Below are positions 7,048 to 7,128 of a stretch of 64,000 nucleotides of DNA, piece by piece (position 1 is the stretch's first letter; each line of letters opens with the position of its first letter). This DNA comes from Mobula hypostoma (lineage: Eukaryota). The stretch is taken from assembly GCF_963921235.1 (NCBI RefSeq), contig NC_086108.1, positions 7,874,001 to 7,938,000 of the forward strand. Reading direction: 5' to 3'. A program made the translations under genes and the position numbers. A model generated the notes under the pieces. That model did not search any database, was not told where the DNA came from, and worked only from the letters and a program-made list of their open reading frames with translations.

Positions 7048-7128
7048 CTGGGTCACCTAGAGGAGGTTGTATGATGTTGAAAGACCCGAAACACCCGATG
7101 ATTCCAGGAACATCACTGAAGATGTGTC
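7048..7128 (+). ncRNA. Candidate non-circularly permuted hammerhead ribozyme in the Hero 3' UTR
   Basis: GUA site 7069-7071, stem I 7072-7078/7109-7115 (7 bp), CUGAAGA 7116-7122, GAAA 7088-7091, stem III 7065-7070/7091-7096, stem II 7124-7128/7083-7087. Confidence 0.6.

What the first reader, a model, noticed from the sequence alone, without database searches (positions are those of the whole stretch)
7048..7128. Scrambled (non-circularly permuted) hammerhead ribozyme in the 3' UTR of a Hero LINE
Seen: every hammerhead core element is present, but in an order no circular permutation produces. The order is: stem III strand with GUA site (7065-7071), stem I strand TGATGTT (7072-7078), stem II strand GACCC (7083-7087), GAAA with its stem III partner (7088-7096), linker, stem I partner AACATCA (7109-7115) directly before CUGAAGA (7116-7122), then GTGTC (7124-7128). 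Stem I is a perfect 7 bp. Stems II and III each have one mismatch, and there is one extra U after CUGAAGA. An extra helix 7048-7055/7099-7107 extends stem III. Established: CUGANGA, GAAA and NUH define the hammerhead core, and R2-type elements are known for 5' HDV-like ribozymes rather than 3' hammerheads. I recall reports of rearranged hammerhead-like RNAs, so novelty must be checked. Inference: a pseudoknotted or dimeric ribozyme, or a catalytically muted RT-recognition fold, at the Hero 3' end. Cleavage at 7071 would remove the element's own last ~80 nt, which hints at regulation or processing of tandem transcripts.
Basis: partly seen in the sequence, partly recalled or inferred. Interest (0 to 1): 0.85.

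Follow-up and report, generated by a model that had tools for sequence, protein, structure and literature searches.

The report
Rewired hammerhead ribozyme in LINE tail
The 3' untranslated tail of a fish-type Hero retrotransposon carries a deeply conserved RNA fold with every hallmark of a hammerhead self-cutting ribozyme, but wired in an order and with a four-way junction not described before; whether it actually cuts is still untested.

Summary
The window copy (element ~6609-7157) is a dead, 5'-truncated member of a very abundant Hero-type LINE. Its 3' UTR motif recurs in relatives down to ~40% protein identity. A strict descriptor hit 40 of 80 fetched loci, all on the ORF strand, against 0.28 hits expected from shuffles. 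In 40 non-redundant sequences CUGANGA, GAAA, U16.1, G10.1-C11.1 and C15.2-G16.2 are nearly invariant. GACCC (7083-87) pairs with GGGUC (7050-54). The strand after CUGAAGA pairs with 7015-24 to form P1. P1, hairpin P2, stem II and the core meet in a gap-free four-way junction between A9 and G10.1. P4 (7056-60/7104-08) ties the far ends of stems I and II, as in the published type-SGC permuted hammerheads (Eckert et al. 2023). Here, however, "Block C" is split. Catalysis is inferred, not shown. The elements often sit head-to-tail, so the ribozyme may process tandem transcripts. I rate it a new variant of a known kind, of high interest.

The parts
6609..7157 (+). 5'-truncated copy of the young, abundant family F1 of a Hero-type RLE LINE
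   Evidence: Other copies are 98-99% identical and all end at about 7157. The 5' boundary of this copy (locus L144) is at 6609.
6615..7007 (+). Remnant of the ORF C-terminus (130 aa, RLE endonuclease region RPD...ELTVPWE...K), stop codon at 7005-7007
   Evidence: A longer copy (P0001) is 60% identical to the Takifugu RT BAC82598.1 and 85-88% identical to many teleost proteins.
7015..7024 (+). P1 5' strand; pairs with 7123-7132
   Evidence: 91.8% of cells paired over 9 depths in 40 sequences, against 50.5% for shuffles. 7 of 10 pairs change on both sides on A4. Predicted by MFE folding and RNAalifold.
7025..7049 (+). P2 hairpin (9 bp) with apical loop CUGAUCA at 7034-7040
   Evidence: 5 of 9 pairs change on both sides. 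The loop carries a palindromic hexamer in 32 of 40 sequences.
7050..7054 (+). True stem II 5' strand (10.1-10.5, GGGUC); pairs with 7083-7087
   Evidence: 93.5% paired in the anchored count. G10.1-C11.1 is 33 GC plus 5 GU of 40. 92.2% paired, with 4 of 5 pairs changed on both sides, on A5.
7056..7060 (+). P4 5' strand; pairs with 7104-7108 (A7059.C7105 is a mismatch in this copy; most copies have G at 7059)
   Evidence: 95% paired, with 4 of 5 pairs changed on both sides. Predicted by RNAalifold. Majority G at 7059 seen.
7065..7070 (+). Stem III 3' strand (16.6-16.1); pairs with 7091-7096; U7067.C7094 is a mismatch throughout family F1
   Evidence: 92.5% paired in 40 sequences, with A15.1-U16.1 in 38 of 40 and C15.2-G16.2 in 39 of 40. 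The mismatch is seen in most F1 copies.
7071..7071 (+). H17 (A); predicted cleavage between 7071 and 7072
   Evidence: H17 is C 14, A 14, U 12 and G 0 of 40. Cleavage itself is inferred by analogy and was not tested.
7072..7078 (+). Stem I 3' strand (1.1-1.7); pairs with 7109-7115
   Evidence: Depths 1-5 are paired in 100, 100, 97.5, 100 and 87.5% of 40 sequences, with 2-4 pair types at each depth. 7 of 7 pairs change on both sides on A5.
7079..7082 (+). GAAA linker joining the far end of stem I directly to the far end of stem II
   Evidence: The H17-to-G12 distance is 12-19 nt in 40 sequences. The same feature is described for type-SGC hammerheads.
7083..7087 (+). Stem II 3' strand (11.5-11.1, GACCC)
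7088..7096 (+). G12 A13 A14, then stem III 5' strand (15.1-15.6)
   Evidence: G12 in 36 of 40; A13 and A14 in 40 of 40; A15.1 in 39 of 40; C15.2 in 40 of 40.
7104..7108 (+). P4 3' strand, directly abutting stem I
7109..7115 (+). Stem I 5' strand (2.7-2.1)
7116..7122 (+). C3 U4 G5 A6 N7 G8 A9 (CUGAAGA)
   Evidence: C3 39, U4 40, G5 40, A6 40, G8 39 and A9 39 of 40. N7 is U 24, A 7, C 6 and G 3.
7123..7132 (+).
7135..7157 (+). P5 hairpin (CAUC-AGUA-GAUG), then a UGUAU-containing tail that ends the element
   Evidence: Hairpin and UGUAU seen by eye in many families. The copies' 3' ends coincide.

Best explanation
The last ~145 nt of Hero-type LINE RNA fold into a compact, doubly pseudoknotted domain whose centre is a hammerhead catalytic core built from four separate strands. 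Along the RNA the order is: P1a, P2 hairpin, stem II 5' strand, P4a, stem III 3' strand-U-H (cleavage site), stem I 3' strand, a short linker, stem II 3' strand-GAAA-stem III 5' strand, P4b, stem I 5' strand-CUGANGA, P1b. This is the published type-SGC (non-circularly permuted) architecture, including the short I-II linker and the extra stem (P4) that ties the other ends of stems I and II. The chain, however, is closed where type-SGC has its ends, and opened between A9 and G10.1. At that point P1 and P2 emerge, so the core sits on a gap-free four-way junction (7024|7025, 7049|7050, 7087|7088, 7122|7123). Shown by computation: conservation, covariation, architecture, position after the ORF, and frequent head-to-tail tandems. 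Inferred: the RNA cleaves itself after H17 (A7071 in the window) to give 2',3'-cyclic phosphate and 5'-OH ends. Because the two products stay held by about 26 bp (P1, II, P4, III), the reaction is probably readily reversible. Its likeliest use is to cut read-through or tandem transcripts into unit-length RNAs whose complementary ends can re-form the core, and perhaps religate or circularise. That would parallel hammerheads in Penelope-like elements and retrozymes, and the 5' HDV-like ribozymes of R2. The window copy itself is a dead fossil with weakened P4, P1 and stem III. My odds: conserved hammerhead-like fold with this wiring, about 0.95; cleaves at the predicted site in vitro, about 0.6; tandem-processing role given activity, about 0.5.
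For: The descriptor found 40 hits in 40 of 80 loci, all on the ORF strand, against 0.28 expected. 39 lie downstream of the ORF; one (L123 site 561) is probably chance. 36 of the 59 loci with at least 200 nt downstream pass it. The covariance model built without stems I and II found 52 matches, all on the + strand. In the core of 40 non-redundant rows, U4, G5, A6, A13, A14 and C15.2 are 40/40. C3, G8, A9, A15.1, G16.2 and G10.1 are 39/40. N7 takes all four bases and H17 is never G. These 40 are what remained of 52 rows: 10 were dropped for a gap at an anchor column and 2 as near-duplicates. On the MAFFT alignment A4, 92.3% of cells are paired, 27 of 42 pairs change on both sides, and 0 of 500 shuffles reach this. 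On A5, stems I and II are 85.5% paired with covariation 0.531 against 0.162, again 0 of 500. All three junction-closing pairs are standard in 32 of 40 rows, and 27 of 35 loci parsed as a gap-free junction. RNAalifold and MFE folding independently recover P1, P2, P4, III and II. The features match the text description of type-SGC. Weak hint of cleavage in vivo: 2 of the 10 contig ends that fall inside the motif lie exactly at H17 (L074, L107). I do not know whether those assemblies are RNA. Tandems: in 12 of 45 loci the next Hero ORF starts ~190-340 nt after C3 on the same strand.
Against: No cleavage assay exists for this RNA. No hammerhead with a broken A9-G10.1 backbone has been shown to work, and Eckert et al. 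assumed this block cannot be interrupted. All genomic copies contain both sides of the site. Of 30 F1 copies sampled by their last 86 nt, none is 5'-truncated at 7072; their boundaries run from 5550 to 7045. Retrotransposed templates were therefore uncut or religated. The most successful family in this genome carries a U.C mismatch in stem III. Rfam 15 reports no hammerhead here, which is expected for a permuted form. Many loci are dispersed rather than tandem. The one long F1 copy examined in this genome has no upstream motif within 5.4 kb.
Confidence: 0.6

Rival explanations
1. The domain is a non-catalytic structured RNA. It would be the recognition or positioning module for the element's reverse transcriptase during target-primed reverse transcription. 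It has, or keeps, the hammerhead fold, but is catalytically silent because the A9-G10.1 backbone is interrupted by the P1/P2 junction.
For: 3' UTRs of R2-type LINEs are known protein-binding pseudoknots (abstract of PMC12222951, seen in the listing). Genomic copies always span the site, and 0 of 30 start at 7072. The abundant F1 family tolerates a stem III mismatch. No RNA ends could be observed.
Against: A purely protein-binding fold has no evident need to obey every hammerhead rule. Those rules include a free N7, H17 never G in 40 of 40, G10.1-C11.1 and C15.2-G16.2. A separate conserved P5 hairpin plus UGUAU lies at the very 3' end, where priming must start. Two contig ends fall exactly at H17.
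Confidence: 0.33
2. One reading: a type-SGC hammerhead with an uninterrupted Block C, stem II formed by GACCC 7083-87 with GUGUC 7124-28 after one inserted U, and stem III extended by helix 7048-55/7099-07.
For: In the window sequence these segments can pair at 4 of 5 bp and about 7 of 8 bp.
Against: Stem II of this model is paired in 54.5% of cells against 50.1% for shuffles, and in 63.3% on A4. A stem II taken directly after A9 (no inserted U) is paired in 48.7%. Both strands have better, covarying partners in P1 and in 7050-54.
Confidence: 0.02
3. The resemblance is chance: hammerhead-like words inside a conserved UTR.
For: Within the two families of this genome the whole UTR is about 80-85% conserved, so motif conservation there proves little.
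Against: 40 hits were seen against 0.28 expected, all on one strand. Compensatory changes occur in all six helices across relatives down to about 40% protein identity.
Confidence: 0.01

Closest known systems
Type-SGC hammerhead ribozymes (HRIMA-1 motif and variants; Eckert, Friedrich, Weinberg & Weinberg, NAR 2023, PMC10085705)
   Same: The order is cleavage-site block, then GAAA block, then CUGANGA. Stems I, II and III all cross one another. A linker of a few nucleotides joins one strand of stem I directly to one strand of stem II. An extra covarying stem ties the other strands of I and II together (here P4). All core nucleotides are conserved.
   Different: The stem II 5' strand does not follow CUGANGA. 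It lies upstream of the cleavage-site block, and A9 runs into a new helix P1, so the core sits on a four-way junction with P2. The chain is closed where type-SGC has its termini. The published examples come from metatranscriptomes or metagenomes (IMG/M) associated with hairpin-ribozyme circular RNAs. The held supplement holds none of the words Danio, Branchiostoma, Eukaryota or fish; 'retrotransposon' occurs only in its reference list. This motif is in an autonomous animal LINE. Activity is proven for type-SGC and untested here.
Classic hammerheads (types I-III) of Penelope-like elements, retrozymes and satellite or SINE repeats
   Same: The same core consensus, and residence in retroelements that occur in tandem. 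The suggested role is cutting multimeric transcripts to unit length. This role is recalled background; the abstracts of the bioRxiv preprint 10.64898/2026.07.22.740005 and of PMC8557442 were seen in the listing.
   Different: Those are unknotted three-way junctions with a contiguous CUGANGA-stem II. They lie in repeats flanking non-autonomous elements or PLEs, not in the 3' UTR of an RLE LINE. Rfam hammerhead models do not detect the present motif.
HDV-like ribozymes at the 5' end of R2 and other LINEs
   Same: A self-cleaving ribozyme in an RLE-type LINE, used to free the element RNA from a co-transcript (abstract of PMC3774820, seen in the listing).
   Different: A different ribozyme class, at the 5' end, cutting at the element boundary. 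Here the predicted cut lies 86 nt inside the 3' end.
R2 3' UTR protein-binding pseudoknot
   Same: A conserved pseudoknotted 3' UTR of an RLE LINE, needed for target-primed reverse transcription (abstract of PMC12222951, seen in the listing).
   Different: No hammerhead core is reported there. No sequence comparison was made here.

Membership tests
Hammerhead ribozyme (any type) | Conserved C3 U4 G5 A6 N7 G8 A9 with N7 free | tested here: met
   39-40 of 40 at each fixed position; N7 is U 24, A 7, C 6, G 3.
Hammerhead ribozyme (any type) | G12 A13 A14 followed by the A15.1-U16.1 pair | tested here: met
   G12 36/40 (the 4 exceptions are A, in CpG-type decayed copies); A13 and A14 40/40; A15.1-U16.1 38/40.
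Hammerhead ribozyme (any type) | Cleavage-site triplet N-U-H with H not G | tested here: met
   H17 is C 14, A 14, U 12, G 0 of 40. G 0 of 40 also when G was allowed in the descriptor.
Hammerhead ribozyme (any type) | Stems I, II and III flank the core with the right polarity and covary | tested here: met
   I 83.6%, II 93.5% and III 92.5% paired, with several pair types per position.
Hammerhead ribozyme (any type) | Backbone runs from A9 straight into the stem II 5' strand (G10.1) | tested here: not met
   The strand after A9 pairs with 7015-24 (P1, 91.8%). A contiguous stem II is paired in only 48.7% of cells. G10.1 is supplied by G7050 after P2. One family (L118; L105/L137 by eye) has a G after A9 that could pair with C11.1.
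Hammerhead ribozyme (any type) | Site-specific Mg2+-dependent self-cleavage | not testable with these tools
   Only assembled contigs were available, so RNA ends cannot be seen.
Hammerhead ribozyme (any type) | Match to Rfam hammerhead covariance models | tested here: not met
   No hammerhead hit at gathering threshold or at E<=10 in the window, nor at E<=1 in 20 related loci. This is expected for a permuted form.
Type-SGC permuted hammerhead (Eckert et al. 2023) | 5'-to-3' order of Block S, Block G, Block C | tested here: inconclusive
   S, G and the stem I-CUGANGA half of C are in that order. The stem II half of Block C lies before S.
Type-SGC permuted hammerhead (Eckert et al. 2023) | Short linker (typically 3 nt) between one side of stem I and one side of stem II | tested here: met
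   GAAA at 7079-82. Linkers are 0-7 nt in the parsed loci. H17-to-G12 distance is 12-19 nt.
Type-SGC permuted hammerhead (Eckert et al. 2023) | Extra stem binding the other sides of stems I and II | tested here: met
   P4 at 7056-60/7104-08: 95% paired, 4 of 5 pairs changed on both sides. Predicted by RNAalifold.
Type-SGC permuted hammerhead (Eckert et al. 2023) | Block C uninterrupted (CUGANGA directly followed by its stem II strand) | tested here: not met
Hero clade of RLE (R2-superfamily) LINEs | RT followed by a Cys-His motif and a PD..D/E..K restriction-like endonuclease; closest named relatives are HERO elements | tested here: met
   P0001 carries CPLC...H....C and RPD...ELTVPWE...K. It is 60% identical to BAC82598.1 (Takifugu RT) and 65% to the Tetraodon cluster holding BAC82599.1. 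PMC2790886 (passages read) lists HEROFr AB097130 and HEROTn AB097131. The link between these protein and nucleotide accessions is my inference. No Repbase comparison was possible.

The most novel reading that the evidence does not exclude
Hero LINEs carry an active hammerhead of a topology outside the six permutations considered so far. The CUGANGA strand is separated from its stem II strand by a four-way junction. The ribozyme would cut, and through its 26 bp of end-to-end pairing re-join, tandem or read-through transcripts into unit-length, possibly circular, RNAs that serve retrotransposition. This would be the first ribozyme in the 3' UTR of an autonomous LINE and the first non-circularly permuted ribozyme in animal genomes. 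Palindromic P2 loops would add RNA dimerisation.
Probability: 0.35. Interest if true: 0.93.

Novelty: new variant of a known kind. Interest (0 to 1): 0.86.

Why it matters
Non-circular permutation of a ribozyme has so far been shown for one set of environmental circular-RNA hammerheads. This motif would extend it to animal genomes and to an autonomous LINE clade spread through teleosts and amphioxus. It would also show that the hammerhead core tolerates a break in the strand thought to be indivisible (A9-G10.1), replaced by a four-way junction. That widens the search space for hidden ribozymes, because descriptor searches that assume three blocks would miss it. It gives structural biology a new natural scaffold. 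It also offers a testable link between self-cleavage or ligation, tandem arrays and LINE RNA processing. If the fold proves inactive, it is still a rare case of a catalytic fold reused as a retrotransposon 3' UTR module.

Tried and rejected
(1) RNA evidence. The look-up of sequencing runs listed 24 runs, all kept as Logan contigs. Read laying on X1, X5, X9 and X10 showed contigs bridging 7071/7072 and no begin/end pile-ups. Contigs cannot show RNA ends, so there is no verdict on cleavage in vivo.
(2) Pile-up of genomic copies starting at 7072. None of the 30 copies sampled starts there.
(3) Tandem arrangement in the window's own genome. One smaller region showed a degenerate copy with no second motif within 5.4 kb upstream.
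(4) Rfam. No ribozyme family was found in the window or in 20 related loci. The only hits were noise: snoU89 at E=4 and isrG below its gathering score.
(5) Earlier findings of this scan. Two look-ups returned nothing.
(6) Rejected structures. A stem II contiguous with A9, 48.7% paired. The local hairpin ACAUC/GAUGU at 7110-7125, which seemed to covary between the two families of this genome but is paired in only 43.5% across families.
(7) Literature. Searches for a Hero or RLE-LINE hammerhead, a four-way-junction hammerhead, 'type-SGC' and 'permuted hammerhead' with retrotransposon found no prior report. Subscription-only papers are not covered by these searches.
(8) tRNA-like stretches downstream of three distant loci. 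ARAGORN found no gene.
(9) Pfam on the 130-aa ORF remnant gave no family.

Full report
**What is at the coordinates.**
- GUA at 7069-7071.
- UGAUGUU at 7072-7078, pairing perfectly with AACAUCA at 7109-7115.
- GACCC at 7083-7087, GAAA at 7088-7091 and CACCC at 7092-7096.
- CUGAAGA at 7116-7122 and GUGUC at 7124-7128.

The order is cleavage-site block, GAAA block, CUGANGA block. No circular permutation of a classic hammerhead gives this order. It is the order named 'type SGC' by Eckert et al. 2023 (PMC10085705; I read sections 13, 14, 15 and part 1 of 18). In that type, one strand of stem I is joined to one strand of stem II by about three nucleotides, and an extra stem ties the other strands together. 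Rfam 15 finds no hammerhead in the window.

**The host element.** The motif follows the stop codon (7005-7007) of a 130-aa ORF remnant.
- The window lies in a 3.48-Gb genome.
- Family F1 has copies 98-99% identical (41 matches listed; 1532 first-look candidates, of which 40 were scored). All end at about 7157.
- The window copy starts at 6609, so it is a 5'-truncated fossil.
- A second, older family, F2, has copies 85-90% identical (2711 candidates, 40 scored).
- A longer copy gives a 272-aa C-terminus (P0001) with a Cys-His knuckle and an RPD...E.K restriction-like endonuclease motif.
- Of 429 homologues found, the best 120 were listed. They are teleost and amphioxus proteins.
- P0001 is 60% identical to BAC82598.1 (Takifugu) and 65% to the cluster holding BAC82599.1 (Tetraodon).
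- A 2009 paper lists HEROFr, HEROTn and HERODr as AB097130-132 (PMC2790886, passages read).

The species and the consecutive accession numbers make 'Hero' the likely name. That link is my inference.

**Relatives from elsewhere.** One metagenome scan with an alignment of C-termini returned 80 loci, 37-87% identical to P0001, with downstream flank.
- A profile of the two UTR families already matched 19 of them.
- I then used a strict descriptor. It required CUGANGA; at least 5 consecutive pairs of stem I abutting both C3 and H17; U16.1; and GAAA with at least 4 pairs of stem III.
- It hit 40 of the 80 loci, all on the ORF strand and none on the other strand. The expectation was 0.28 hits per dinucleotide-shuffled set (25 sets, both strands).
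- Five scrambled cores gave 0, 0, 0, 1 and 0 hits.
- One of the 40 (L123 site 561) lies inside the ORF and is probably chance.
- 36 of the 59 loci with at least 200 nt downstream pass. Most of the rest show CUGANGA and GAAAC at the right spacing but with a helix defect.
- The window copy itself fails the descriptor because of the U7067.C7094 mismatch.

**The structure.**
- GUGUC and its flanks (7123-7132) pair with 7015-7024 (P1).
- GACCC pairs with GGGUC at 7050-7054.
- Both pairings change by compensation. P1 examples are GGUAGACG/CGUCUACC and GGGACGCA/UGCGUCCC. Stem II examples are GCUCC/GGAGC and GGCGC/GCGCC.

On a plain MAFFT alignment of 12 sequences (A4), the six-helix model (P1, P2, II, P4, III, I) is paired in 92.3% of cells. 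27 of its 42 pairs change on both sides. No shuffle out of 500 reaches the observed values, and sliding the partners by 1-3 columns drops pairing to 34-41%. RNAalifold on A4 predicts P1, P2, P4 and III by itself. The MFE fold of the window RNA gives P1, P2 and II.

A covariance model holding only the nested helices P1, P2, P4 and III found 52 matches in 82 sources, all on the + strand. On that alignment, which was not fitted to the two pseudoknot stems:
- Stem II is 92.2% paired, with 4 of 5 pairs changed on both sides.
- Stem I is 80.1% paired, with 7 of 7 pairs changed on both sides.
- Covariation is 0.531 against 0.162 for shuffles, 0 of 500.

I also counted pairs by anchoring on core columns. 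Of the 52 rows, 10 were dropped for a gap at an anchor column (L088, L117, L133, L092, L074, L067, L123, L097, L109, L085). Two more were dropped as near-duplicates (L072, L091). That leaves 40 rows. Results:

| Helix or model | Cells paired |
|---|---|
| Stem I | 83.6% (depths 1-5: 100, 100, 97.5, 100, 87.5%) |
| Stem III | 92.5% |
| Stem II (7050-54/7083-87) | 93.5% |
| P1 | 91.8% |
| Stem II contiguous with A9 | 48.7% |
| Local hairpin 7110-7125 | 43.5% |

**The core.** In those 40 rows:
- U4, G5, A6, A13, A14 and C15.2 are invariant.
- C3, G8, A9, A15.1, G16.2 and G10.1 are 39/40.
- U16.1 is 38/40 and G12 is 36/40. The four G12 exceptions are A.
- C11.1 is 33 C plus 5 U.
- N7 is U 24, A 7, C 6, G 3.
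- H17 is C 14, A 14, U 12 and never G.

These are the hammerhead rules, including the two positions that are free to vary.

**What is new in the wiring.** Stem polarity is that of a hammerhead throughout. A 0-7 nt linker (GAAA, 7079-82) joins the far end of stem I to the far end of stem II. P4 (7056-60/7104-08) joins their other strands. Both features match the description of type SGC. The difference is at A9. In every described hammerhead the chain runs from A9 into G10.1, and Eckert et al. assumed this block cannot be interrupted. Here A9 (7122) runs into P1, and G10.1 (G7050) arrives from hairpin P2.

With A7024-U7123, A7025-U7049 and G7050-C7087 as closing pairs, P1, P2, stem II and the core meet with no unpaired nucleotide. 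All three closing pairs are standard in 32 of 40 rows. 27 of 35 loci parsed automatically as a gap-free four-way junction. The motif is thus a type-SGC-like hammerhead closed at the SGC termini and opened inside Block C. In one distant group (L118; L105/L137 by eye) a G follows A9 and could pair with C11.1, which shifts the junction by one pair.

**Does it cut?** This is inferred, not shown.

For:
- The full set of catalytic-core constraints is conserved.
- 2 of the 10 contig ends that fall inside the motif lie exactly at H17 (L074, L107). I do not know whether those assemblies are RNA, so this is a weak hint.

Against:
- The broken A9-G10.1 backbone is untested.
- The public runs were available only as contigs, which cannot show RNA ends.
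- None of 30 F1 copies sampled by their last 86 nt starts at 7072.
- F1 carries a stem III mismatch.

Since the two products would stay joined by about 26 bp (P1, II, P4, III), re-ligation is plausible. It would reconcile cleavage with intact genomic copies.

**Likely role.** In 12 of 45 loci with enough flank, the N-terminus of another Hero ORF begins ~190-340 nt after C3 on the same strand (L078 is weak). L073 and L095 show the same leader before their contigs end. Other loci are followed by unrelated DNA. Head-to-tail units with a constant junction place the motif between ORFs. This resembles hammerheads in Penelope-like elements and retrozymes (recalled background; abstracts seen in the listing).

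I therefore favour unit-length processing of tandem or read-through transcripts, possibly with end-joining. The rival is a non-catalytic fold used by the reverse transcriptase.

**Prior art.** Searches for a hammerhead in Hero or RLE LINEs, a four-way-junction hammerhead, 'type-SGC', and 'permuted hammerhead' with retrotransposon found nothing beyond Eckert et al.. The text says their tested sequences are from IMG/M, apart from one bacterial RefSeq record. A word search of the one held supplement found no fish, Danio, Branchiostoma or Eukaryota; 'retrotransposon' occurs only in its reference list. I did not see their figures or read their alignments.

**Verdict.** Stems I and III and the permuted order are right. 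Stem II, the 'extra U' and the extra helix are wrong. The motif is a new variant of a known kind: a hammerhead-type core with split Block C on a four-way junction, in the 3' UTR of an animal LINE clade. Catalysis awaits a simple in vitro test.

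Noticed in passing
window 7034-7040 (P2 loop); same position in L061-L140: The apical loop of P2 holds a self-complementary hexamer in 32 of 40 sequences: UGAUCA 20, UGGCCA 8, GACGUC 2, CGGCCG 1, AGUACU 1. The central pair changes by compensation (AU to GC). This suggests loop-loop (kissing) dimerisation of the RNA.
   Followed up: partly
L065, L077, L081, L083, L084, L086, L099, L100, L106, L117, L128 (also L073, L095), downstream of the motif: Head-to-tail tandem Hero units. The next ORF starts ~190-340 nt after C3. The leader between units is a run of 4-6 small hairpins of the form CCAG-GAAAGN-CUGG followed by (A/G)UGAC, conserved across families. L082 and L084 lie on one 9.1-kb contig.
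   Followed up: partly
window 7135-7157; equivalent tails in related loci: A small hairpin (CAUC-NNNN-GAUG) followed by UGUAU recurs near the 3' end in many families. It may be the site where reverse transcription starts. Seen by eye; not counted.
   Followed up: no
window 7005-7015; 27 parsed loci: The ORF stop codon lies within 18 nt before P1a, or inside P1a/P2, in 17 of 27 loci. In the other 10 it is 27-641 nt upstream. In the 17, a terminating ribosome would unwind P1/P2 and could gate folding of the motif.
   Followed up: partly
window 6900-7160 against public runs and proteins: Near-identical DNA occurs in 24 runs of 13 studies under a dozen coded organism labels. Proteins 83-88% identical occur in distantly related teleosts such as Conger, Limanda, Entelurus, Clarias and Clupea. 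This means either unusually slow evolution or horizontal spread of this Hero lineage.
   Followed up: no
window 7067 and family F1 copies: The young, very abundant F1 family has U at 16.4 (a U.C mismatch in stem III). Relatives, a few F1 copies (L021, L024) and part of the contigs in other organisms have G there. This may be an attenuated form.
   Followed up: no
L011:1188-1440 and 1501-1758: Two F1 copies sit head-to-head, about 60 bp apart, in opposite orientation.
   Followed up: no
window 1-350 and 8978-9352: A long (TG/CA)n microsatellite lies at the window start. An unrelated reverse-transcriptase fragment (a different LINE type) lies at 8978-9352.
   Followed up: no
L111, L127, L131 downstream of the ORF: In the most distant relatives (38-40% identity) the hammerhead-like motif was not seen. 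The downstream sequence looks tRNA-like by eye, but ARAGORN calls no tRNA and the contigs end there.
   Followed up: partly
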